From the UHGV virus genome UHGV-0178594: 64,000 nucleotides of DNA; one strand, 5' to 3'. Source of the stretch: a virus. Every line of letters starts with the position of its first letter. The stretch's first letter is position 1. The position numbers and the translations under genes were made by a program. Below, in pieces: positions 601 through 26,912 of the stretch. Below the pieces are notes generated by a model. That model made no database searches. It was not told the DNA's origin and worked only from the letters and a program-made list of their open reading frames with translations.

Positions 601-2262
601 ACCGATCGACACCAACCCAGTTCTTAAATTTATAGCAAAAGGTCTTAATGGGCCGATGTCACCATTTTCTCCCTCACCTTCATTTGTCGGGATAAGATGC
701 AGAGATTCCTCGGATCTCCTGAAGATAAGGCCAAAGTCCTGGTTAAATATTCGAAGGGCATTTATTGTGCCAATTTTTAGCTGCCCCCCCATTGTGTCGC
801 CAGAACGCTGAACTGCGTTACCAGCTTGAGAAGCAATATCCGTTAAGCCAAGATCTTCAGGGGTCAGAGTAATATCTGCCGACCCATCAAATGCCACACC
901 GTTAATCTTTCTGGCTGTTTTTAATTTCGTCGCAGTATCGGCGTTCCCGGTCAGCGTACCAGTGATCCCCGCGCTGAAAGTCTGGCGTGCACTCCAGGTA
1001 TTAGCTGTGCTCAACAGGGGGAGCTTTTCTCCGCTGGTTCCGAGTTCTCTTAAACCAAGGTATTGGATAACAGCCAGTGTGCTTGTTTTAGCAAGAATAT
1101 CGCGACCGACTGACGTTAAATCAGTCTGGGCTACAGTGTCTGTTCCGGTAAAGTACGGTAATTTATTTGCCCCCGTCGCCAGGCCAGCGAGCGCGGTTAA
1201 GGTTGCGTCGAGAGGCTGCTTACCTGCCAGGGCATTTGTCATTGTAGTCGCAAAGTTCGGGTCATTGCCCAGCGCCGCAGCAAGCTCATTAAGAGTATCA
1301 AGAGCTTCTGGTGATGAGCCGACCAATGCAGAAATAGCGGCACGAACATAAGCGGTTGTTGCAATCTGAGTGTTGTTCGTACCTTGTGACGCCGTAGGAG
1401 CTGTTGGAACCCCCGTAAATGCCGGGCTTAATAACGGCGCTTTAAGAGCTAAAGCATCATTAATCGTCTGGCTAAACTGGGGATCATTGTTTATTGCATC
1501 TGCAATTTTTTTCAGCGTATCCAACGCTGAAGGAGAACCATCAATAAGGGCGGTTATAGCGGCCTGAACAAAGGCAGCGTTTGCGATTTGTGTACTGTTT
1601 GTACCTTGTTCCGGAGTTGGAGATGTAGGGATACCTATAAATTCCGGGCTATCAACCGGAGCTTTAAGTTTATTTAACGTGCTGATAGCAAGGGGGGTTG
1701 CAGCTTTATATTCTTCGTCACTATCCAAAGCACTGGAGAACTCAACACCTACAGCACGATTAGCGCGATATTTAGTGCTAATCATATCTGCGGTAACGGC
1801 TTGAGCATTGTCAGGCACGATCACTCGGCATAGCTCAATCTGGTTAGATGCTATGCCCTCATCAACGAGAGCTATAATTCTCGCAGCACTAATATCCGAT
1901 GAACTATCTACCTGGCTGGTTTTCACTCCATGTTCGTAATTAGCTTCAAGAACGATGATTGTCGTTACACCTGCTTCTACAGGAACAACAACATCACTGA
2001 CTTGCTGCACGGATATCTGACATTTACCCACGTCAACTGAAGCCGCCCCTCTTCCCTCTGTTTTCTCGGATGTAATCCGCACAAACAGGCCATCCCCTGG
2101 CACCGGTTCAAACCCACAGTACACACCGGGCAGAACGATATTTTTCATCTTCCTGTTTAGAGCTTCGGTGCTATACAGCTCAAAGTATTGCATGTCTGCA
2201 ATTAGTGGAGCGGAAATGTCCGAAGATAAGGTGACAATGTTCTTTACTTTATCTGCGCACAT
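1..2262 (-). CDS. Tail fibre protein, partial (C-terminal end runs off the window); ~40-aa phage tail-fibre repeats
   Basis: Minus-strand ATG at 2262-2260; no complete minus ORF is listed here although the reverse translation reads through repeats of the type ..TGNADTATKLKTARTIGGVSFDGSANI..; plus-strand ORFs at 485-1567 are antisense artefacts. Confidence 0.6.
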   Translation of the reverse strand, partial: MCADKVKNIVTLSSDISAPLIADMQYFELYSTEALNRKMKNIVLPGVYCGFEPVPGDGLFVRITSEKTEGRGAASVDVGKCQISVQQVSDVVVPVEAGVTTIIVLEANYEHGVKTSQVDSSSDISAARIIALVDEGIASNQIELCRVIVPDNAQAVTADMISTKYRANRAVGVEFSSALDSDEEYKAATPLAISTLNKLKAPVDSPEFIGIPTSPTPEQGTNSTQIANAAFVQAAITALIDGSPSALDTLKKIADAINNDPQFSQTINDALALKAPLLSPAFTGVPTAPTASQGTNNTQIATTAYVRAAISALVGSSPEALDTLNELAAALGNDPNFATTMTNALAGKQPLDATLTALAGLATGANKLPYFTGTDTVAQTDLTSVGRDILAKTSTLAVIQYLGLRELGTSGEKLPLLSTANTWSARQTFSAGITGTLTGNADTATKLKTARKINGVAFDGSADITLTPEDLGLTDIASQAGNAVQRSGDTMGGQLKIGTINALRIFNQDFGLIFRRSEESLHLIPTNEGEGENGDIGPLRPFAINLRTGLVSIGNGVTVSGGITGNLTGNADTATKLKTARTIGGVSFDGSANIDLPGVNKTGNQSTTGNAATATKLQTARTIGGVSFDGSANINLPGVNIAGNQNTTGNAATATKLQTARTIGGVSFDGSANIDLPGVNKTGNQSTTGNAATATKLQTARTIGGVSFDGSANINLPGVNIAGNQNTTGNAATATKLQTARTIGGVSFDGSANI

Positions 2263-2264
2263 AA

Positions 2265-2711
2265 TTATCCCTCGACCTGTTCAATGGTCATGAGCAAGCT
2301 GTATCGCTTACCTTTGAATAAGGTGTCCTGTTGAGTACAAACAACCCCAAAAGCCTGATCCTCTGCATCTACGAGAACCAGCGTATTGAAATCGTAAGGT
2401 GTATCGTCCGGCATCGTTTCTTGTGGAAAAGCGGCATTAATCGTAATGACACCATCGAGGCTGGAAAGAATGAGATTGGATTCAGCAAAATGCTGTGCAT
2501 CACTTAACTTGAAGTCGAGCGGAATATCAGAAATAGTCCAGCCACCAGCACTATTTACCGTCACAAGATCGGACTTGCACCAATAAGCCTTTGTCATAAC
2601 AAAACGCTCACCTCTGCCGATTGCAGACTCTGCACGGCGAGAGTAGTAGTAAGAAAGGAGTTGCGCCTTGTAAATACTGGAATCGCTTTGGGATTTTAAA
2701 GTTTCAGCCAT
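2265..2711 (-). CDS. Tail-associated protein immediately upstream of tail-fibre gene
   Basis: 148-aa ORF in the baseplate/tail-fibre operon; no recognised motif. Confidence 0.3.
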   Translation of the reverse strand: MAETLKSQSDSSIYKAQLLSYYYSRRAESAIGRGERFVMTKAYWCKSDLVTVNSAGGWTISDIPLDFKLSDAQHFAESNLILSSLDGVITINAAFPQETMPDDTPYDFNTLVLVDAEDQAFGVVCTQQDTLFKGKRYSLLMTIEQVEG

Positions 2712-2827
2712 ACGAACATAGCCCCTTTAACAAGCAATAAATCGAAGGGCAGTATGTTCAGTTTGTGATTTCCAGTGGTTTTTTGTTTTGAGAAATGGCC
2801 CCACCCAGGTTGGCGGGGCCTGGTTTG

Positions 2828-3670
2828 CTAAGGTGCAAAATTATAATCCAGCGCCCAGGCGTCGAGCGGGAGTTCATCGAGATGAAGCACTCTTTCCGTC
2901 GTCCGGTCTGGCCTTCCTGCGAACTGGATGCCGCCTATTTGAATGATCGTATCGCTAATAGATAGCTCATCGACCATCTCTTGCGTCGTGTACACCCCCT
3001 CAATAAAGGACACTTCCGCAGATAAGCAATTCAGGATCTCCGCCATTTCCGGCAATGTTGCGCTTAACTGGAAAGAAACACCATCAAACACGATATGCAA
3101 TGGCAATAGCGGCGCTATAACCGTATCAAAATCAGCAAGTAGCTTCTGTACAGCAACGTCTCGGTCATCGCTATCATAAGCTCGATACAGCTTATTTTGG
3201 TTGACGACAACCAGCCCTCTGGATGTCAGGAAAAACTCACCATATTGTGCCTGAGCGGTCGGTATTTCATTTGCGGTCGCGAAGAATGAACCATAGGGAT
3301 GTTTTTCTGTATCGACAGGCGCATACAAAGGTTCCCATGAGACGGGGATTGTGCCAAATTCACGCCAGAACGTTTGCTCTATCGGCCTTACTGTTCCTTT
3401 GAAGTGCACCTCATCCAGTCGTTGAGCTAATAGCATTGGCCTGCGTGTTTTGTCCGTTTCTGTGATAACAAAGAAACGACCATATTCAGCAATGCGAGTG
3501 TCCATATCCTCCCTTGCCATTGTGAAAAACGATTTACGGTTGCTTATTCGCGTGAGAATAGGTTCAACCGATTCATTCCACACGTCCTGAATCGTATCAA
3601 CAAAGGCGGCCCACAATTTAGAATCCTGTTTAAATTGCGTCAGACGCTCTTTTAGCCAGTTATTCTGCAT
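2828..3670 (-). CDS. Baseplate/tail protein (gpI-like position)
   Basis: 280-aa ORF; gene order W-like, J-like, this ORF, tail fibre resembles P2-type baseplate wedge modules. Confidence 0.3.
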   Translation of the reverse strand: MQNNWLKERLTQFKQDSKLWAAFVDTIQDVWNESVEPILTRISNRKSFFTMAREDMDTRIAEYGRFFVITETDKTRRPMLLAQRLDEVHFKGTVRPIEQTFWREFGTIPVSWEPLYAPVDTEKHPYGSFFATANEIPTAQAQYGEFFLTSRGLVVVNQNKLYRAYDSDDRDVAVQKLLADFDTVIAPLLPLHIVFDGVSFQLSATLPEMAEILNCLSAEVSFIEGVYTTQEMVDELSISDTIIQIGGIQFAGRPDRTTERVLHLDELPLDAWALDYNFAP

Positions 3671-3679
3671 TGTGACCTC

Positions 3680-5110
3680 TTACGGATAGGTTATGCTGAA
3701 CGTTGATGATTCCACGTCCAGATAAACAAAATCATTAAAGTACACAGCTTCTTTCATGTTCTGCGTAGCCACGTCATAAGACAGGAACATATCCAGCGAT
3801 TCGATTACTCGCCAGATATCTTTTACTTTGACCTGTGCATAACATTGCTGTGAATCGTCATCACTCTGCAATAGCTGGCTAAATGACATGGAGTCTTTAC
3901 CGAAGTTCTCCTCCAGTGCCGCTTTAATTGCAGTTAGCGCGTCATCCACCAGCACACTCTTTTTTACGATACCGGTAAATTTGATGTTGAACGGCTGTTC
4001 ATTGGTGGCGACGTATTCGAACTTCTTATTCAGCTCATTAGGGATACTCTCAAGGGCTGATAATATCTCTGTTTTCAGAGCTTCCTGTGTTACGCCGGGC
4101 TTGTGCCCACAAAAGAAAATTTTGTTGATATTACGCACATCAAAGCCCGTGATTTTCTCCTGTAGCGCCTCCCCCCACACGTTAAGCCATGACGTGCCAC
4201 TGACCACGTTCTGAATGAACTGTCGGTAATCACCGCCCCAAACAACCTGCTCATCGTAGGCCACATAATACTGCGCCCTGTTTCGGGTTTCCTCGGTAGT
4301 TTCCATGCCACCACCGCCAGAAATGATCGAATCGGTTTTTACTTCCAGTGATTCGACATACCCGGAGATGTTCCCTGCTGGTTCAAGTTTCTGGCCTTCA
4401 GCCAGCGTGTAATCACCGAGGCTTGCCATAATATCAATGCGTACCTGACTCCCTGCCGCTGGCATCATCCCCATTGATCCATCACCGAAGCGCACGCCGA
4501 TCTGTTCTGTCGGCTTATAAACCAACACATAATGTTTACTGTTATCCCTGGACATGCGGAACAGGGGGTTATGTGTCCATTTTTCCTCGACACCATTAGT
4601 TATCACGACAACTTCCAGGCTGGCGACTTCTGCTGTTAACTCACGGGAAAGTAACAGCGTCAAGAATGGTGTTTCTTGCACCACGTCGAACGTTACGCTG
4701 ACTGCTTCATGCTGTTTTACTTCTATGCCGGGTACTGTTTCACCAGCAGGGATAACAACACTACTGCTGGTTGCAATTGGTGTCTGGTCACTTGTCAGTA
4801 ATTCAGCCCCTCCGGGTAGCGTAATATCCCTGTCGGTTTTGTTGGTGATGGAAACAGTGCCGTATGACGCATCGACCAAACGACCGACATAGCCACGGTC
4901 TTCCGCTGCCGCGAGAATACTTGCTCTACGCGTCGCGGTGGAAATGAATCCTTCTGTAAGTGCACGGCTTGCAAATGTACGCGCAATATAAACAATCTGC
5001 GCGCCCAAAACGGACTGCATTTGAATAAACTGGCTGTTTACAAATCGCGCCCACCAGGGGTTTTCGTTCAGCTTGGCATTAAACTTGTCCAGTAATTCGG
5101 TAATACTCAC
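3680..5110 (-). CDS. Baseplate protein (gpJ-like position)
   Basis: 476-aa ORF between a W-sized ORF and the tail-fibre block; call is by position and size only. Confidence 0.35.
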   Translation of the reverse strand: MSITELLDKFNAKLNENPWWARFVNSQFIQMQSVLGAQIVYIARTFASRALTEGFISTATRRASILAAAEDRGYVGRLVDASYGTVSITNKTDRDITLPGGAELLTSDQTPIATSSSVVIPAGETVPGIEVKQHEAVSVTFDVVQETPFLTLLLSRELTAEVASLEVVVITNGVEEKWTHNPLFRMSRDNSKHYVLVYKPTEQIGVRFGDGSMGMMPAAGSQVRIDIMASLGDYTLAEGQKLEPAGNISGYVESLEVKTDSIISGGGGMETTEETRNRAQYYVAYDEQVVWGGDYRQFIQNVVSGTSWLNVWGEALQEKITGFDVRNINKIFFCGHKPGVTQEALKTEILSALESIPNELNKKFEYVATNEQPFNIKFTGIVKKSVLVDDALTAIKAALEENFGKDSMSFSQLLQSDDDSQQCYAQVKVKDIWRVIESLDMFLSYDVATQNMKEAVYFNDFVYLDVESSTFSITYP

Positions 5111-5481
5111 GCTGTATCTCCGCTATCTTTCTGCATAACAACATTCACGGTGCCTCCTTTTGCCTGGAAGCTAATTAGTAACTGGTCTTCAGAGACAGTC
5201 GCGCAGCGGATCGCCTGGAGTCCAAGCCCTGGTAAGTCCTGCTGTAGCTTCGTCATCATTCGCGCTTCAATCGCCACTTCAACAATGTGTGACGTATCAG
5301 AACCGAAGGGTTCGTGTTTGAACTCCTCCATCGGATTCCCCCATGACGGCAATCCGTAAACGCTGCCATTTGGTGTCCGTAGCCATTCATCGAGTCGGGC
5401 TATCCAGGCGTTTGTGTCGCCTTCAGCGATCACCACCCCGCTCTCGTTTGTCTGAAGGCGGGCATCAATCTCATAAAGCAT
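5107..5481 (-). CDS. Baseplate wedge protein (gpW-like size/position)
   Basis: 124-aa ORF, 4-bp overlap with the downstream gene. Confidence 0.3.
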   Translation of the reverse strand: MLYEIDARLQTNESGVVIAEGDTNAWIARLDEWLRTPNGSVYGLPSWGNPMEEFKHEPFGSDTSHIVEVAIEARMMTKLQQDLPGLGLQAIRCATVSEDQLLISFQAKGGTVNVVMQKDSGDTA

Positions 5482-21574: not shown

Positions 21575-21815
21575 ACACCTCCTTTTTCTTAAATCTTCTC
21601 CACTTTGTGATTTTCACTCTTCAGATTTCTTACTTCTCATATTTGTCTCTGATTTGTCTCAAAAGGGTATCATGGGTACATCATGTATCATCTAAGTCTC
21701 TTCTTTGTCTCTCTTACGTCTCTAGTTTGATGCTTTTTACGCTATCTAACTTCTGGTCTTATTTTGTTTTCTCATATAAAATTCAATTCTTTCTCAAATG
21801 TGTCTCAGAAGTGGA
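21575..21815. promoter_or_regulatory. parC-like centromere/promoter: about six TGTCTC-type short repeats upstream of parM
   Basis: TTTGTCTCTGA, TTTGTCTCAAA, TAAGTCTCTTC, TTTGTCTCTCT, TACGTCTCTAG, TGTGTCTCAGA read directly. Confidence 0.45.
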
Positions 21816-21820
21816 GCAAT

Positions 21821-22780
21821 ATGATGCGCATTTTTATCGACGATGGTTCTACCAATATCAAAATGCTGTGGGAACAGGACGGGGAAACTCGAACCCATAT
21901 CTGTCCGAACAGTTTTAAACGTGGATGGTCCGCCACATTTGGCGCAGGAAAGCCGTTTAACTACATCATTGATGACGAAAAATATTCATATGACTTGATC
22001 TCGCCGGATGTGCTGCCGACGAATAACGTTGAATGGCAATACAGCCCGCTTAATGTGCTTGCTGTTCATCATGCCCTGCTTACAAGTGGCATTGAGCCTC
22101 AAGAAGTGGAAATAGTTGTCACGTTGCCACTGGCAGAGTTTTATGACGACGACGCACAATACAACATGAAAAATATTGAGCGGAAAAAGGCCAGCCTGAT
22201 GCGACCAGTCACCCTTAACAAAGGTCAGGTTTTTACTATCAAAAAAGTGACTGTGCGCCCGGAGTCAATACCCGCAGGGATCGGTCTGTGCGACAGCCTT
22301 GTGCCAGCGCATTCTGTGCTTATTGTTGATCTTGGTGGGACTACTCTGGATGTGTCGATGGTCGCCGGGCAAATGACCGCCGTTTCTCGCGTATTTGGCG
22401 ATTCTAATCTCGGCGTTTCGCTGGTAACTAAAGAGGTCAGACAGGCACTTGCAAAAGCGAATACCGAAACCTCTAATTATAATGTCGATCAATTAATCAT
22501 TAATCGTGATGATGAGGATTATTTGACCGACAATATTAACGATCCGTCTGCTATTGATGATGTTAAGAAAGCCATTTCGTCAAGCATAGAACGACTCCGT
22601 ACACGCGTACTGGATGTGATCAGTGATTTCAAAGGATACACGCATGTTATGGTCATTGGTGGCGGCGCGCCGCTTGTTGCTGATGCTATCCGTGAGCAGG
22701 TAAACATTCGTGACGATAGGTTTTTCGTTGCTGATGATCCACAACTTGCTCTTGTCTATGGTCTAAAATCTATCGGTTGA
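21821..22780 (+). CDS. parM: Actin-like plasmid segregation ATPase
   Basis: MMRIFIDDGSTNIKMLW.. with ..LAVHHALLTSG.., ..IVDLGGTTLD.., ..GYTHVMVIGGGA.. closely matching remembered R1 ParM/StbA; start taken at ATG 21821 after GGAG. Confidence 0.85.
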   Translation: MMRIFIDDGSTNIKMLWEQDGETRTHICPNSFKRGWSATFGAGKPFNYIIDDEKYSYDLISPDVLPTNNVEWQYSPLNVLAVHHALLTSGIEPQEVEIVVTLPLAEFYDDDAQYNMKNIERKKASLMRPVTLNKGQVFTIKKVTVRPESIPAGIGLCDSLVPAHSVLIVDLGGTTLDVSMVAGQMTAVSRVFGDSNLGVSLVTKEVRQALAKANTETSNYNVDQLIINRDDEDYLTDNINDPSAIDDVKKAISSSIERLRTRVLDVISDFKGYTHVMVIGGGAPLVADAIREQVNIRDDRFFVADDPQLALVYGLKSIG

Positions 22781-22790
22781 TGAGGTTGCC

Positions 22791-23156
22791 ATGTCTCAGG
22801 AACGTCGAAAAGTATTGTTTTATCTTCGTCCTGGTCTTAACGCCAGTGAGCAATATGCTGATGCAAAACTTGAGGGCCATCCATTAAGAGATCGCAATGA
22901 TATGGCGCGCACAGCGATGCTTGCAGGTATCGCTCTTGGCGAGGTTGATAGCAGATTACCTCCCATGTTGGCATCGCTTTTATCCGGTGATAATAGCCCT
23001 GAAGTGATCAGAAAAATGCTGGTTTCATTTCTTGAAATTTCGCCTGAAGTTCGGGAAAACCCTGAAGGAAACCCCTCAGCCTCAGCGGATGTTAAAAAAC
23101 CTGGCGTTTCGAAAAGCCGCTCTGCACAGAATTTGGCAAACTCACTCCCTGATTAA
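22791..23156 (+). CDS. parR: Centromere-binding adaptor
   Basis: 121-aa ORF directly after parM; N-terminal ..RKVLFYLRPGLN.. pattern like ParR. Confidence 0.6.
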   Translation: MSQERRKVLFYLRPGLNASEQYADAKLEGHPLRDRNDMARTAMLAGIALGEVDSRLPPMLASLLSGDNSPEVIRKMLVSFLEISPEVRENPEGNPSASADVKKPGVSKSRSAQNLANSLPD

Positions 23157-23171
23157 CAAATCTACATCTTC

Positions 23172-23197
23172 AAAGGCTGCAATTTGCAGCCTTTTTT
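23172..23197 (+). terminator. Rho-independent terminator after parR
   Basis: AAGGCTGCAATTTGCAGCCTT hairpin followed by TTTTTT. Confidence 0.55.
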
Positions 23198-23225
23198 ATA
23201 CTGTTATGGTTCTAATTTGGTGTTC

Positions 23226-23290
23226 TTTTAGTACCAAAACGGTGTTGTTATGGTGCTGTTTTGTGTCTGGTTCCACTTTGAGGCTGGTTT
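23226..23290. repeat. Centromere-like GGTGTT/TAGTACCA repeats upstream of the Walker ParA gene
   Basis: TTTTAGTACCAAAACGGTGTTGTTA; a near-identical copy lies downstream at 24420. Confidence 0.35.
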
Positions 23291-23441
23291 CGTGTTAAAC
23301 AGGATGCAACAGAGGGTAAATTTAGAGTGTTTAGTGTTATACTTTTGCAAAGCATAGTGACTCCACTATAGAGCCAAAACCGCATCAATAAGGCTTCTGT
23401 TTGGAACCAGTTTGATACCAAAATAACACCGAGGAACGGAT

Positions 23442-24083
23442 ATGATTATATTGGTAGTCAGCCAAAAAGGTGGCTGTGGAAAATCAACCACAAGCGTAAA
23501 CATCTGTGCGGAGCTTGCCCGCGAAAATAAGGATGTAGTGTTACTAGATGCAGACAAGCAAGGAACAGCTGCCCGCTGGGCAGCTGACCGTAACACGGCA
23601 GAGGTTTCTCCTGTAATTCATTGTGTCCAGAAGTTTGGTAATATTCGAGAAACACTTCTCGATCTGGATAAGCGTTATGAATTTGTAGTTGTTGATACAG
23701 CCGGGCGCGATAGCAAAGAGATGCGTACAGGCATAACCGCTGCAGATATTGTGTTGGTCCCATTTAGACCATCTCAACCAGATTTAGACACGCTGGCACA
23801 CTTTGTTGAAGTGTTTGAAGAGGCTTTGGACCTGATGCCTAATCCTAGCATTAAGGCGTTCGCAGTCTTAACAATGGCCCCATCCAATCCGGTTGTGAAT
23901 GAAACCAATGAGGCCAAAGAGTACCTGGCTGAATATCCGCAACTGAAGTTGCTGAAAACCATCATTCGTGATCGTAAGGTTTACCGCGATTGCATGGCTG
24001 AAGGGAAGGGCGTTGTTGAGATGGACAACGGGAAAGCTAAAGGTGAAATCCAGATGTTGGTTAAGGAGTTATTAAGTGATTAA
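23442..24083 (+). CDS. Small Walker-type (ParA/ParF/MinD-family) partition ATPase
   Basis: N-terminal deviant Walker A VSQKGGCGKSTTS, ..VVLLDADKQG.., ..VVVDTAG.. Confidence 0.8.
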   Translation: MIILVVSQKGGCGKSTTSVNICAELARENKDVVLLDADKQGTAARWAADRNTAEVSPVIHCVQKFGNIRETLLDLDKRYEFVVVDTAGRDSKEMRTGITAADIVLVPFRPSQPDLDTLAHFVEVFEEALDLMPNPSIKAFAVLTMAPSNPVVNETNEAKEYLAEYPQLKLLKTIIRDRKVYRDCMAEGKGVVEMDNGKAKGEIQMLVKELLSD

Positions 24084-24363
24084 GCCTCGTAAATCGGTAA
24101 AAGCCCCCGAAGTAAAAGACCCCGATCTTGAACGCCGAATTGAGGATTTTGCCAGTAAGGCTGATTTGGTGCCGGGTGAGCAACCAGAAGACAACAAAGT
24201 GCTCGATAAGGACGCCCCACGTGATTTTAAATCCATTCGTGTTGGCTTCAATGAATACGAGTACCAGGTACTTGATGCGTTAAGCAAAAAGCATAATCGC
24301 AGCAAATTGAATATGATCCGCCATGCTATCCTCATGCTTGCAGAGTCTGAGGATACAAAATGA
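24076..24363 (+). CDS. ParG-like small RHH partner protein
   Basis: 95-aa ORF overlapping the ParA stop; C-terminal ..SKLNMIRHAILMLAES.. ribbon-helix-helix-like. Confidence 0.45.
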   Translation: MIKPRKSVKAPEVKDPDLERRIEDFASKADLVPGEQPEDNKVLDKDAPRDFKSIRVGFNEYEYQVLDALSKKHNRSKLNMIRHAILMLAESEDTK

Positions 24364-24372
24364 CGCCGGAAT

Positions 24373-24444
24373 AACACCGTTTTGGTTCCATGTGGTGTTT
24401 TGATACTACCTTGATGCCTTTTTAGTACCAGAATGGTGTTATTA
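24373..24444. repeat. Centromere-like repeats downstream of the ParA/RHH pair
   Basis: AACACCGTTTTGGTTCC (inverted) and TTTTAGTACCAGAATGGTGTTATTA (direct) relative to the upstream set. Confidence 0.35.
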
Positions 24445-24497
24445 GTGTACCGTAATGGCGTTTATTTGATGTTATAAAGCCCCATATGGGGCTTTTC

Positions 24498-26912
24498 TTA
24501 ATTGAGCGTGGCTATAATGTCGTTAGCTATCATTCGGGTTGATGCTTTACAGGATACAGAGCGACGGGATGGCATAGGATACACCTTGAAGCCATTGCCA
24601 ACGTAAAGTTCGCGAATGTTAGGCGCACCACTGTTTGTTATCACAATTTTCGCTCCGCGTCTGTGGGCATCCACCAGCAGTGACACCAGCCGTTGTTGAT
24701 CTTCAAACCTAAAGCTATGCCCTGAGTAATTTGTAAATCCGGTAGTGTCGGGCAATGGTTCATAGGGGGGATCGCAGAAAATCACATCATCATTCCCTGC
24801 AGCCTCAATTACACCAGCAAAATCGCCGGACACAAATTCCGAATACTTTGAAATATCGTCAGCCAGGAACGCCTCCATTTCCGCGAGAGGGAAGTGGGGG
24901 GATTTCTGCTTTCCATATCCGACGTTGAACTCTCCTTTACGGTTATAGCGAGTGACGCCATTAAAACAATGACGATTGAGATACAGGAACGCCGCTGCAT
25001 GGTGAAGGGAATCATAAGCACCATTGTTGAATGCATTGCGAACATTCAAAAATGCATCAGCAGAGTTGTAATCCTGAAAAAAACGATATGCCAGTGTGAT
25101 AAGAGAATGCCCTTCACGCTGCAATGTCTGATAGAAGTTAATCAGGTCACCGTTAATATCATTAAGCAGGTTGTGGCGAAAACCTGCATTCGTAAATACG
25201 GAACCGCCACCAACGAATGGTTCTATTAACCGCTTGCCGTGTGGCAGATGCTCAAGCACTGTAGGCAACCCTGAGAATTTACCGCCTACCCATTTGAATA
25301 TTGGGCGCTCATATTCATCCGGAGTCCGGAGTTTTCTTGTGTAGGTAATGGTATTTATTGTTTTTTGCTGTTTATCCGCCACGGTCGCAAGAATGCGACA
25401 CCCAATCCATTGCATAACAGGAACTGCCATGCTGTTGCCGATCGCTTTGTAACGCGGTCCGTCAGCAGCGAGCATCGCGGCCTCTTCTTCGCTTAAATCT
25501 GGATAGTGATTGCGAAGATATGCCAGTTCATCTGAATTAACTTTTTTACGCTTTTCCGTCGGGATCAACGTATGCCCATCAGGAAAACCTTGCAGCCTTT
25601 CACATTCGACAGGGGTAAGACGGCGGACAGCTACTTCTGCGTTTCTTACTTCATAGCAAACAGCTGTTGGATTTTTAGCCATTAGAGATGGTGAAGTATT
25701 CTTAGTTGCAGCATGTTGTGTACCGCTCATACGCTCAGGAAAAGCCAATGTAACAAGATGCTCATGGCTTTCTTGCTCACGTGCCCGCAATGTACCATGC
25801 CCTTCTGACCAAAAACCTGCTCCTGTGCTGCTAAAAACGGCAAGGTCAGTGGCATCTTTAAAATCTCTTGCCTTTACTGTCGATGCGGTTTCATCGTCAA
25901 TATATTCCCCAAATGCTGCCATCCTGAAAGCGTTTACGGCTTTCGTCGATTTCATACCGGGTGGCATGTCAGCGTGTAGGCATGGATTTAGGCTTTCGCC
26001 ACTGATTGCAGCGCCATTTGCAATAATGGCGGAAGCGATTTCCTTCTTTTTTCGGCTCGGCGCAATATTCCGGCGCACGCCTTCGAACTCAAAAAGTACC
26101 GTTGCGGGATCGAGGTCTGTTCGAGCACTTGCGACAACAAACACGCGTCGGCGTCGTTGCGCCACTCCGAAGTATTGGGCATCAAGGATTCTCCAGGCCA
26201 CTTTTCGCTGCGGTCCATAAATACAACCACACTGCGGCCACTTTGGAGCATGGCAACCGGTTTTGACATCCCACCGCCAGAACGAGTTACTTTTTCCTGA
26301 TTCAGGTCGATCACCTGGTTCGAATGGCGCATCTTCTCCAGCCAATCCGGCAAGGAAACATCCGAAGGCGTTATCTGCCGATGACAGGACTCCTGGGACA
26401 TTTTCCCAGACGATAACTGTCGGTTTGAGGAAGGACTCAGACCGTTTGTCGTCAATTGCATTTGCAAGCTCCACATACTTCAAAGTTAGCGCGCCGCGTT
26501 CATCATCAAGCCCACCACGTAAGCCCGCGATACTGAATGCCTGACAAGGGGTTCCTCCGACGAGGACATCCGGGGCTTCAATTTTTCCAGCCCGGACCTT
26601 CTTAGCAAGTTTTGTCATGTCGCCAAGGTTGGTAACATGAGGCCAGTGGTGCGCAAGAACGGCAGACGGAAAAGGCTCAATTTCAGCAAACCAAGCCGGA
26701 CGCATACCCAACGGTTCCCAGGCAATGCTTGCGGCTTCAATTCCACTGCAAACCGAACCATATCGAAGATTAATGCTTTGCTTCACCGCCAATGGCCTCC
26801 ACCAGCGAGCTAAACATCGCGGATAATTCGCTTGTGAACAGAATGAAGTCAGCATCAAATCGCTGGGCAACATCTTCACGGTCGATGTCATCGTTCTGGT
26901 CATAGAGATCAT
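24498..26912 (-). CDS. dmt: Bifunctional DNA methyltransferase: N-terminal C5-cytosine MTase fused to C-terminal Dam-like N6-adenine MTase
   Basis: C5 motifs ..YGSVCSGIEAA.., ..GGTPCQAFSIAG.., ..VIVWENVPG..; Dam motifs ..FKWVGGKF.., ..FLYLNRHCFNG.., ..FCDPPY..; 5' end uncertain (143-bp overlap with rdgC as listed). Confidence 0.8.
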   Translation of the reverse strand: MISMTRTMTSTVKMLPSDLMLTSFCSQANYPRCLARWWRPLAVKQSINLRYGSVCSGIEAASIAWEPLGMRPAWFAEIEPFPSAVLAHHWPHVTNLGDMTKLAKKVRAGKIEAPDVLVGGTPCQAFSIAGLRGGLDDERGALTLKYVELANAIDDKRSESFLKPTVIVWENVPGVLSSADNAFGCFLAGLAGEDAPFEPGDRPESGKSNSFWRWDVKTGCHAPKWPQCGCIYGPQRKVAWRILDAQYFGVAQRRRRVFVVASARTDLDPATVLFEFEGVRRNIAPSRKKKEIASAIIANGAAISGESLNPCLHADMPPGMKSTKAVNAFRMAAFGEYIDDETASTVKARDFKDATDLAVFSSTGAGFWSEGHGTLRAREQESHEHLVTLAFPERMSGTQHAATKNTSPSLMAKNPTAVCYEVRNAEVAVRRLTPVECERLQGFPDGHTLIPTEKRKKVNSDELAYLRNHYPDLSEEEAAMLAADGPRYKAIGNSMAVPVMQWIGCRILATVADKQQKTINTITYTRKLRTPDEYERPIFKWVGGKFSGLPTVLEHLPHGKRLIEPFVGGGSVFTNAGFRHNLLNDINGDLINFYQTLQREGHSLITLAYRFFQDYNSADAFLNVRNAFNNGAYDSLHHAAAFLYLNRHCFNGVTRYNRKGEFNVGYGKQKSPHFPLAEMEAFLADDISKYSEFVSGDFAGVIEAAGNDDVIFCDPPYEPLPDTTGFTNYSGHSFRFEDQQRLVSLLVDAHRRGAKIVITNSGAPNIRELYVGNGFKVYPMPSRRSVSCKASTRMIANDIIATLN

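What the first reader, a model, noticed from the sequence alone, without database searches (positions are those of the whole stretch)
21575..24444. Two adjacent partition systems of different types
A ParM/ParR pair with a parC-like repeat array is followed, after a clean terminator, by a small Walker ParA plus RHH partner flanked on both sides by TTTTAGTACCA(A/G)AA(C/T)GGTGTT repeats. Carrying a type II and a type Ib system side by side is unusual and may reflect module capture or a need to avoid incompatibility with co-resident plasmids.
Basis: partly seen in the sequence, partly recalled or inferred. Interest (0 to 1): 0.45.

Follow-up and report, generated by a model that had tools for sequence, protein, structure and literature searches.

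The report
Two adjacent plasmid partition modules
This stretch of a D6-like phage-plasmid carries an intact actin-type (ParM/ParR) and an intact small Walker-type (ParA plus ribbon-helix-helix protein) partition module side by side, a real but already known and common arrangement.

Summary
The window is a D6-like, P1-family phage-plasmid of E. coli. It carries parC iterons, parM and parR, then a strong terminator. After that come repeat boxes, a 213-aa ParA, a 95-aa ribbon-helix-helix (RHH) protein, more boxes and a second terminator. All four genes are full length.

The 11-nt phasing of the parC iterons is far beyond chance, and so is the clustering of the GTACCA-type repeats flanking parA.

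A type II plus type Ib combination is not unusual. pB171 is the textbook case, a 2026 survey counts 971 PLSDB plasmids with this combination, and the four-gene locus recurs in 122 PLSDB plasmid records and in phage D6.

New details from this work:
- The RHH protein, annotated "hypothetical" and without a Pfam family, lies directly after a ParA orthologue in 25 of 28 distant gammaproteobacterial loci. None of these has parMR nearby.
- The same [GA]TACCA box flanks those operons, which supports the RHH protein as the centromere binder.
- Against D6, parA is 99.7% identical in DNA, parM is 80%, and ParR is 58% identical in protein. The two modules therefore have separate histories.

Function is inferred from sequence, not shown. 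Verdict: new member of a known kind, low to moderate interest.

The parts
21628..21806 (+). parC-like centromere/operator. It consists of 11-nt iterons ending in (G)TCTC, in three phased clusters (21628-21660, 21690-21722, 21763-21806). The last cluster overlaps a candidate -10 element, TATAAAAT at 21775-21782.
   Evidence: five TCTC pairs lie exactly 11 nt apart against 0.22 expected, and 0 of 5000 shuffles reach this. D6 has the same three-cluster layout with a different iteron sequence. The consensus scan found no promoter here, so the promoter is inferred only.
21824..22780 (+). parM, an actin-like segregation ATPase of 318 aa.
   Evidence: Pfam StbA_N 2e-69 and ParM C-terminal domain 9e-56. 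R1 ParM (PDB 4a62) E 1.7e-110, residues 1-318 against 1-319. 42% identical to the pB171-type ParM. Against D6, 167 of 192 nucleotide differences fall at codon position 3.
22791..23156 (+). parR (StbB-type), the adaptor with an N-terminal RHH domain, 121 aa.
   Evidence: Pfam Plasmid_stab_B 3e-14. pB171 ParR structure 2jd3 E 4e-7 over residues 3-78. phrog_8671 'partition protein' 9e-58.
23172..23199 (+). Intrinsic terminator that closes the parMR operon.
   Evidence: 10-bp stem with 5 GC pairs, a 3-nt loop and a T run. Conserved in D6.
23204..23290 (.). Distal upstream box cluster of the parA module. It holds GGTG/CACC-type boxes at 11-nt spacing and the palindromic unit TACC-N5-GGTG (23232-23244).
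   Evidence: ACC-N5-GGT occurs at 3 sites (6 strand-counted hits) in the 357 nt of flanks, against 0.18 hits expected from the window background.
23344..23372 (+). Candidate parA promoter: TTTGCA, 17-nt spacer, TATAGA.
   Evidence: Read directly from the sequence and conserved in D6. It was not reported by the consensus scan, so it is weak and inferred only.
23404..23431 (+). Three promoter-proximal boxes (GAACCA, ATACCA, ACACCG) spaced 11 nt apart, ending 11 nt before the parA start codon. Probably an operator.
   Evidence: The boxes are identical or nearly so in D6-type elements. A box at -27/-28 from the parA ATG recurs in many distant loci.
23442..24083 (+). parA, a small deviant Walker A partition ATPase of 213 aa with no N-terminal HTH domain.
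   Evidence: Pfam AAA_31, CbiA and MipZ. NCBIfam NF041546 ParA_partition at 162.8 bits, covering 1-203 of 203 positions but below the 180-bit cut-off. ParF 4dzz and ParA 5u1g at about E 1.6e-18. 43% identical to the pB171-type ParA.
24076..24363 (+). Gene for a 95-aa RHH protein, the presumed centromere-binding partner. It has a GTG start and an 8-nt overlap with parA, which suggests translational coupling.
   Evidence: No Pfam family. phrog_9169 (unknown function) 2e-61 and an Arc-like repressor PHROG at 4e-4. AlphaFold2 model with pLDDT 82, above 90 over residues 50-90, and helices at 60-72 and 77-92. Top Foldseek hits are CopA, CopG, ParG and Arc. The gene follows a ParA orthologue in 25 of 28 loci.
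24370..24462 (.).
   Evidence: Boxes directly after the RHH stop codon recur in 13 of 21 independent loci.
24476..24495 (.). Palindromic terminator between the RHH gene and the convergent methyltransferase gene.
   Evidence: (inverted repeat I24).

Best explanation
The window carries a tandem double partition locus of a D6-like phage-plasmid prophage.

Module 1 is a type II parMRC system. ParR dimers are expected to coat the 11-nt iterons upstream of parM, which would also repress the operon. ATP-bound ParM would polymerise between two ParR-parC complexes and push sister plasmids apart.

Module 2 lies behind its own terminator and is a type Ib system. The 95-aa RHH protein is expected to bind the [GA]YACCA / GGTG boxes on both sides of the operon, in the layout parC1-parA-parB-parC2. 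This would autoregulate the promoter lying between the upstream boxes. Through its conserved N-terminal tail (MxKRR ... IExFA helix), the RHH protein would stimulate nucleoid-bound ParA-ATP, so that plasmid copies are spaced evenly over the nucleoid.

What is shown here: gene identities, intactness, the statistics of the repeats, and conservation of the parA-RHH-box trio. What is inferred from the families: DNA binding, autoregulation, ATPase stimulation and actual plasmid stabilisation.
For: - ParM, ParR and ParA are full-length homologues of characterised partition proteins.
- The RHH fold is predicted at high confidence over residues 50-90, and the fold hits are dominated by RHH proteins, including ParG.
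- The iteron phasing reaches 0 of 5000 shuffles.
- The 16-mer core occurs only in the parA flanks at 0 or 1 mismatch.
- The RHH gene follows a ParA orthologue of 58-70% identity in 25 of 28 distant loci.
- The [GA]TACCA box, derived from this window, is enriched about 18-fold within 60 nt of those operons in 21 independent loci (p = 1.5e-35), on both flanks.
- Purifying selection acts on parM: 167 of 192 differences from D6 fall at third codon positions.
- No other partition genes are annotated in the 91.7-kb sister plasmid.
- The locus is conserved in 122 PLSDB records and in phage D6.
- pB171 par2 has the same parC1-parA-parB-parC2 layout (PMC4270457).
Against: - There is no experimental evidence for this element or any D6-like element in the papers I could read.
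- ParA scores below NCBIfam's equivalog cut-off (162.8 against 180 bits).
- The RHH protein has no significant sequence match to pB171 ParB, to the IncK partner protein, or to any solved structure. Foldseek E-values are all 0.12 or higher because the domain is small.
- The consensus scan found no convincing sigma-70 promoter in either control region.
- Whether both modules contribute to stability cannot be read from sequence.
Confidence: 0.8

Rival explanations
1. Both modules are intact, but only one does the work in a given host or condition. The other would be redundant, conditional on temperature, host or growth rate, or kept mainly for its incompatibility (exclusion) effect on related phage-plasmids.
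For: - Other double-par plasmids show a hierarchy or condition dependence: SCP1, R27 and pINV, as discussed in PMC13245405.
- The ParR/parC allele differs sharply between D6-like sublineages while parA is almost identical. That pattern fits different selective regimes for the two modules.
Against: - Both modules are retained together in 122 PLSDB records.
- parM shows strong purifying selection.
- The parA cassette, including its boxes, is conserved.
Confidence: 0.25
2. The ParA/RHH pair is not a partition system. It would instead be a VirC1/VirC2-like DNA-processing accessory, or a positioning ATPase for some other cargo.
For: ParA also passes the Pfam VirC1 and MipZ thresholds (47.5 and 57.1 bits). 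To my knowledge VirC2 is also an RHH protein.
Against: - The best full-length matches are the ParA partition model, ParF and the pB171-type ParA.
- No relaxase or conjugation genes are annotated in the element.
- A homologous pair sits next to a RepB replicon in plasmid CP045667.
- Repeats flanking both sides of the operon are the type Ib centromere pattern.
Confidence: 0.05
3. The 95-aa RHH protein is only a transcriptional repressor, or a CopG-like copy-number regulator. One D6-like annotation calls a gene in this cluster 'cop'. On this view ParA would be an orphan, or would use another adaptor.
For: - There are weak hits to the Arc-like repressor PHROG and to a RelB-like antitoxin model.
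- Foldseek's best hits are repressors and antitoxins.
- PMC6799933 lists 'cop' alongside parA, stbB and parM.
Against: - The gene is coupled to and overlaps parA, and stays linked to a ParA orthologue in 25 of 28 distant loci.
- The family has a conserved N-terminal tail and helix in front of the RHH domain, as ParG-type adaptors do.
- Boxes also lie downstream of the operon, where a plain repressor would not need them.
- Type Ib centromere-binding proteins are autorepressors as well, so repression does not exclude a partition role.
Confidence: 0.07

Closest known systems
Phage D6 orf58-orf61 (NC_050154 / MF356679) and D6-like plasmid prophages such as pYU39_89
   Same: This is the same four-gene locus at the same genomic position, between the PAAR/upfC-like gene and the methyltransferase region. 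In D6 it is already annotated as StbA-type, StbB-type and 'ParA-like partition protein' plus a hypothetical protein. PMC6799933 lists parM, stbB, parA and cop as the partition system. ParA is 100% identical, the RHH protein 98% and ParM 94% in protein sequence.
   Different: ParR is only 58% identical and the parC iterons differ in sequence: GTCTC here, against (A/T/C)TCTC in D6. The downstream box region is rearranged. D6 has glnS downstream, while the window has a convergent 804-aa methyltransferase.
The double par locus of pB171 (par1 = parMR type II, par2 = parAB type Ib); the same arrangement is seen in pCE10A, locus L004
   Same: It pairs a type II and a type Ib module directly next to each other. 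The type Ib operon is flanked by ParB-site arrays on both sides (parC1 and parC2). ParM is 42% identical, ParR 33% over its RHH domain, and ParA 43%.
   Different: In pB171 the two operons diverge from a shared parC1 region. Here they lie in tandem, separated by a terminator, each with its own cis sites. The RHH partner shows no significant sequence similarity to pB171-type ParB. The repeat sequences also differ: ATCACA/TTCACA-type boxes in L004 against GTACCA/GGTG here.
R1 parMRC (type II archetype)
   Same: ParM aligns end to end (372 bits, E 1.7e-110). The gene order parC-parM-parR is the same, and 11-nt iterons lie upstream of parM.
   Different: The iterons form three phased clusters of about three units each. 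To my knowledge R1 has two blocks of five around the promoter. The promoter position here is not established.
TP228 ParF/ParG/parH (type Ib archetype)
   Same: It combines a small Walker ATPase (ParF 4dzz, E 1.5e-18) with a small protein that has a flexible N-terminal tail and a C-terminal RHH domain. ParG (1p94) appears among the fold hits. Its centromere is an array of short boxes.
   Different: There is no detectable sequence similarity between the RHH protein and ParG. The box sequence and spacing differ, and here boxes lie on both sides of the operon.
Other multi-par plasmids (R27, pINV, SCP1; survey in PMC13245405)
   Same: They carry more than one partition system. That survey counts 971 PLSDB plasmids with a type-I RHH plus type II combination.
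   Different: Most of those are conjugative or virulence plasmids. This element is a tailed-phage prophage that lives as a plasmid.

Membership tests
Type II parMRC partition system | A full-length actin-like ATPase of the ParM/StbA family | tested here: met
   Both Pfam ParM domains score above their cut-offs. The alignment to R1 ParM covers residues 1-318 against 1-319, E 1.7e-110.
Type II parMRC partition system | A ParR adaptor with an N-terminal RHH domain, encoded directly after parM | tested here: met
   Plasmid_stab_B scores 53 bits against a cut-off of 25. The pB171 ParR structure 2jd3 matches at E 4e-7. The gene starts 10 nt after the parM stop codon.
Type II parMRC partition system | A parC centromere made of phased iterons upstream of parM | tested here: met
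   The 11-nt phased (G)TCTC units reach 0 of 5000 shuffles, and D6 has the same layout. This is a sequence pattern only; binding was not tested.
Type II parMRC partition system | ParR binds parC, and ParM filaments segregate plasmids | not testable with these tools
   This needs EMSA or footprinting, microscopy and stability assays.
Type Ib ParA/RHH-ParB partition system | A small (about 200-215 aa) deviant Walker A ATPase without an N-terminal HTH domain | tested here: met
   The protein is 213 aa and carries K9GGCGK14ST. It aligns over its full length with ParF (residues 3-211 against 4-202) and with NF041546 (1-203 of 203).
Type Ib ParA/RHH-ParB partition system | The score reaches NCBIfam's curated ParA_partition equivalog threshold | tested here: not met
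   The score is 162.8 bits against a cut-off of 180. The protein is a relative of that equivalog set, not a member of it.
Type Ib ParA/RHH-ParB partition system | A small centromere-binding protein with a C-terminal RHH fold, encoded directly downstream | tested here: met
   The AlphaFold2 model has pLDDT above 90 over residues 50-90, with an extended segment followed by two helices. The Foldseek top hits are CopA, CopG, ParG and Arc, with probabilities of 0.57-0.99 (0.57 for ParG) and E-values of 0.12 or higher. Family members hit the Pfam families RHH_1, NikA-like and TraY. The fold is predicted, not solved.
Type Ib ParA/RHH-ParB partition system | Arrays of short repeated boxes next to the operon that serve as centromere and operator | tested here: met
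   See for the window. In 21 distant loci the [GA]TACCA box is enriched about 18-fold within 60 nt of the operon (p = 1.5e-35), on both flanks. Binding was not tested.
Type Ib ParA/RHH-ParB partition system | The module stabilises a plasmid in cis, and the centromere-binding protein stimulates the ParA ATPase | not testable with these tools
   This needs stability and ATPase assays.
pB171-type double par locus (strict membership) | Divergent par1 and par2 operons that share the parC1 region | tested here: not met
   Here both operons are on the + strand and are separated by a terminator. L004 shows the divergent pB171-type layout.
pB171-type double par locus (strict membership) | All four proteins are orthologous | tested here: not met
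   ParM is 42% identical, ParR 33% and ParA 43%. The RHH partner gives no significant match (BLASTP E 0.13; hhalign probability 1%).

The most novel reading that the evidence does not exclude
The 95-aa protein would define an undescribed family of type Ib centromere-binding adaptors. The family has no Pfam model, has about 124 representative clusters at 50% identity, and spans the Gammaproteobacteria. It would recognise a conserved [GA]YACCA box placed on both sides of its operon. In D6-like phage-plasmids this cassette would move horizontally almost unchanged, while the neighbouring parR/parC diversifies into incompatibility alleles. That would be a division of labour between a shared 'universal' module and a specificity-determining one.
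Probability: 0.35. Interest if true: 0.4.

Novelty: new member of a known kind. Interest (0 to 1): 0.25.

Why it matters
Phage-plasmids of the P1/D6 group are common in E. coli and Salmonella, and how they are inherited stably bears on their spread. This locus shows that D6-like elements do not use the P1 type Ia ParABS system. They use a tandem type II plus type Ib pair that sits among virion genes, about 12 kb from the replicon.

The practical gains are modest:
- A functional name and a candidate binding box for a protein annotated everywhere as "hypothetical".
- A clear pair of ParR/parC alleles that could be tested for partition-mediated incompatibility between co-infecting D6-like prophages.

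None of this changes what is understood about partition mechanisms.

Tried and rejected
- **Chance repeats:** rejected by shuffles and window-wide searches.
- **Truncated genes or wrong starts:** rejected. All four proteins align end to end with homologues. The parM start is 21824, not the ORF-list TTG at 21764.
- **A structured RNA in the intergenic regions:** Rfam gave no hit at E up to 1.
- **Sequence homology of the RHH protein to pB171-type ParB, to the IncK partner protein, or to solved structures:** nothing significant.
- **Promoters:** the consensus scan found none in parC and only a weak one overlapping the parA start. The promoters I name are candidates read by eye.
- **Literature:** the D6 genome paper (PMC5800970) and the pB171 paper (PMC64986) are not held.
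- **Locus search with the 50-sequence alignment:** it was too diverse for the search for related loci. A 9-sequence alignment worked.
- **pMUB-MIN14-1 (L008):** it shows frameshifts in parM and parA. I attributed these to probable assembly errors and did not use them as evidence of decay.
- **Possible cross-talk sites:** an iteron-like TTTTGTGTCTGG lies upstream of parA, and GGTAC/GGTATC motifs lie inside parC. These are single occurrences and too weak to support a claim.
Full report
**What the window is.** Region 21575-24500 is 99.7% identical to an unnamed 91.7-kb E. coli plasmid (NZ_CP104667.1). It matches 122 PLSDB records, mostly non-mobilizable 89-97-kb plasmids of Escherichia, Salmonella and Shigella. 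In the phage collection it matches only Escherichia phage D6, at 87.7%. The neighbouring genes encode the major capsid, tail and baseplate proteins, a PAAR protein, RdgC and methyltransferases. The window is therefore a D6-like, P1-family phage-plasmid prophage.

**Checking the observation: the type II module.**
- parM is at 21824-22780. It carries both Pfam ParM domains and aligns end to end with R1 ParM (E 1.7e-110).
- parR is at 22791-23156. It matches Plasmid_stab_B and the pB171 ParR structure 2jd3.
- Upstream of parM lie 11-nt units ending in (G)TCTC, in three phased clusters: 21628-21660, 21690-21722 and 21763-21806.
- Five TCTC pairs are exactly 11 nt apart, against 0.22 expected. None of 5000 dinucleotide shuffles reaches this. 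D6 has the same three-cluster layout with a different iteron sequence.
- A terminator with a 10-bp stem follows parR at 23172-23194.

**Checking the observation: the type Ib module.**
- parA is at 23442-24083 and encodes 213 aa with the deviant Walker A motif K9GGCGK14ST.
- Its best matches are the NCBIfam ParA_partition model (162.8 bits over the whole model, below the 180-bit cut-off), TP228 ParF/ParA structures (about E 1.6e-18), and the PHROG "ParA-like partition protein".
- A 95-aa ORF at 24076-24363 starts with GTG behind an AAGGAG motif and overlaps the parA stop codon.
- The 16-nt core also occurs inverted at 24373-24388 and in degenerate form at 24447-24462.
- Nowhere else in the 64 kb is there a hit with 0 or 1 mismatch.
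- All elements of the observation are confirmed.

**The 95-aa protein.** It has no Pfam family and no significant hit in the PDB by sequence.
- It belongs to phrog_9169 (unknown function) and weakly matches an Arc-like repressor PHROG.
- A profile search found 124 representative clusters. They share an N-terminal MxKRR motif, an IExFAxxAD segment, and a C-terminal block K-IRV-FNEYEY..L....GRSKLN.IR.AIL.
- Several family members hit the Pfam RHH families RHH_1, NikA-like and TraY.
- The AlphaFold2 model has pLDDT 82 overall and above 90 for residues 50-90. It shows an extended segment followed by helices 60-72 and 77-92, plus an N-terminal helix at 16-29.
- Foldseek's best PDB hits are almost all RHH proteins: CopA_SO, CopG, ParG, Arc, TacA and ORF56. 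TM-scores normalised to the target are up to 0.82. E-values are 0.12 or higher because the domain is only about 42 residues.
- I accept the RHH assignment as a well-supported prediction.

**Is the RHH protein ParA's partner, and are the repeats its sites?**
- A scan of one genome per species returned 28 loci from diverse Gammaproteobacteria, including Sodalis, Serratia, Rahnella, Chimaeribacter, Kangiella, Kushneria, Hahella, Aeromonas, Pseudomonas and Methylococcales.
- In 25 of them the RHH gene lies directly after a ParA orthologue of 58-70% identity on the same strand. None has ParM or ParR within 4 kb.
- The most frequent hexamers in the flanks of many of these operons are GTACCA, TACCAA and ACCAAA, which is the core of the window's repeat.
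- I tested the box [GA]TACCA, defined from the window, on 21 loci that exclude the window and D6. It occurs at 15.9 per kb within 60 nt of the operon, against 0.9 per kb in the rest of those loci (p = 1.5e-35). It appears in 17 of 21 loci.
- With a looser box pattern, boxes recur at -27/-28 from the parA start codon and directly after the RHH stop codon, often 11 nt apart.
- Within the window, the upstream boxes form a distal cluster (23204-23290) and three promoter-proximal boxes 11 nt apart (23404-23431). The palindromic unit ACC-N5-GGT occurs at three sites in the 357 nt of flanks, counted as 6 hits on the two strands against 0.18 expected.
- This is strong comparative evidence for a conserved trio of ParA, RHH protein and boxes. 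Binding itself has not been shown.

**Mechanism (inferred from the families).**
- Module 1 should work like R1 and pB171 par1. ParR would bind the parC iterons, and ParM filaments would push plasmids apart.
- Module 2 should work like pB171 par2 and TP228 parFGH. The RHH protein would bind the box arrays on both sides of the operon. This matches the parC1-parA-parB-parC2 layout used in pB171 par2 constructs (PMC4270457).
- The RHH protein would also repress its own promoter and stimulate nucleoid-bound ParA-ATP through its N-terminal tail.
- The promoters are not established. The consensus scan found none in parC and only a weak one at the parA start. I list TATAAAAT (21775-21782) and TTTGCA-17-TATAGA (23344-23372, conserved in D6) only as candidates.

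**Comparison with known systems.**
- The closest match is the same locus in phage D6, which is already annotated as StbA-type, StbB-type and ParA-like, with the RHH gene left as hypothetical. A D6-like Salmonella plasmid paper lists cop, parA, stbB and parM as its partition system (PMC6799933).
- The functional archetype is the pB171 double par locus. A pB171-type locus on pCE10A shows parR and parM transcribed one way and parA and parB the other.
- Identities to that locus are 42% for ParM, 33% for ParR and 43% for ParA. The RHH partner shows no significant match.
- The present locus is tandem rather than divergent. It has separate cis sites and different box sequences.
- It is therefore an analogue of the pB171 locus, not a member of it.

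**Is it unusual?** No.
- A 2026 survey of PLSDB reports that 19% of plasmids with a recognisable partition system carry more than one. It counts 971 plasmids with a type-I RHH plus type II combination and calls this combination previously reported (PMC13245405).
- Within the D6-like group the double locus is the norm.
- No other partition genes are annotated in the sister plasmid. Its RepB replicon lies about 12 kb from the par locus.

**What is modestly new: separate module histories.**
- Against D6, parM is 79.9% identical in DNA, with 167 of 192 differences at third codon positions. The ParR protein is 58% identical. parA differs at only 2 of 642 nt, and the 5' part of the RHH gene is 96-99% identical. 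Identity then drops below 55% downstream.
- Such a difference in synonymous divergence cannot come from selection alone. The parA cassette, roughly 23400-24250, has been exchanged recently among D6-like lineages.
- The window-type ParR allele occurs at 95% identity or more in only 7 PLSDB records, whereas more than 100 records carry the D6-type allele at about 58% identity to the window ParR.
- A homologous parA-RHH pair also sits next to a RepB replicon, with no parMR annotated nearby, in an unrelated 93-kb plasmid.
They are compatible with parR/parC acting as a diversifying incompatibility determinant, but they do not prove it.

**Verdict.** Novelty is "new member of a known kind". Interest is low to moderate (0.25). 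The main value is a functional assignment and candidate binding box for an unannotated RHH adaptor family, plus a testable pair of parC alleles.

Noticed in passing
window 21769-24480 compared with L001 (D6), L006 and L009: Divergence is mosaic. parM is about 80% identical in DNA and parR 55-70%, but parA is 99.7% identical (2 nt differences) and the 5' part of the RHH gene 96-99%. Identity then falls below 55% downstream. This indicates recent recombinational exchange of the parA cassette among D6-like lineages.
   Followed up: yes
window 22791-23156 and 21628-21806: The ParR/parC pair here is a minority allele. ParR at 95% identity or more occurs in only 7 PLSDB records, while more than 100 records carry the D6-type allele at about 58% identity to the window ParR. 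The iteron sequence differs accordingly: GTCTC here against (A/T/C)TCTC in D6. These may be partition-incompatibility types.
   Followed up: partly
window 23258-23269; L001 about 5468-5479: Upstream of parA lies TTTTGTGTCTGG, which resembles the window's parC iteron (TTTGTCTC). D6 has TTTTGTATCTGG at the same place, and its own iterons read TTATCTC. This could be a co-varying ParR site giving cross-talk between the modules, as described for pB171. It is a single site and the idea is speculative.
   Followed up: no
window 21661-21689: The 29-nt spacer between the first two iteron clusters contains GGTATC and GGTAC motifs, whose reverse complements are GATACC and GTACC. These resemble the boxes of the parA module but lack the following A. 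Significance is unknown.
   Followed up: no
window 24498-26912 (- strand): An 804-aa ORF looks from its sequence motifs like a fusion of a cytosine-C5 (Dcm-like) and an adenine-N6 (Dam-like) methyltransferase; no domain search was run on it. It converges on the par locus. In D6 the corresponding region holds glnS plus two separate methyltransferase genes. The nearest plasmid (CP104667) lists no such gene in its PLSDB table, and its rdgC sits about 700 nt closer to the par locus.
   Followed up: no
L003 3150-3830 (plasmid CP045667): Eight 21-nt iterons (CCGCAAA..TATCACG) lie between a RepB gene and the homologous parA-RHH pair. This is a replicon-adjacent copy of the module, with no parMR annotated within the 8.6-kb stretch fetched.
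   Followed up: partly
L008 (pMUB-MIN14-1) 1357-3687: parM and parA are each split by a frameshift in this 95.9%-identical plasmid, and only parR appears in its gene table. This is probably a long-read assembly error rather than decay.
   Followed up: partly
alignment A5 against L004 4139-4411: The N-terminus of the pB171-type ParB (MVKKP...VEQAEALAQR) resembles the RHH family's N-terminal consensus (MvKrR...IEaFA). The match is not significant (hhalign E 0.05, probability 1%). It may nonetheless reflect a shared ParA-contacting tail, since the two ParAs are 43% identical.
   Followed up: no
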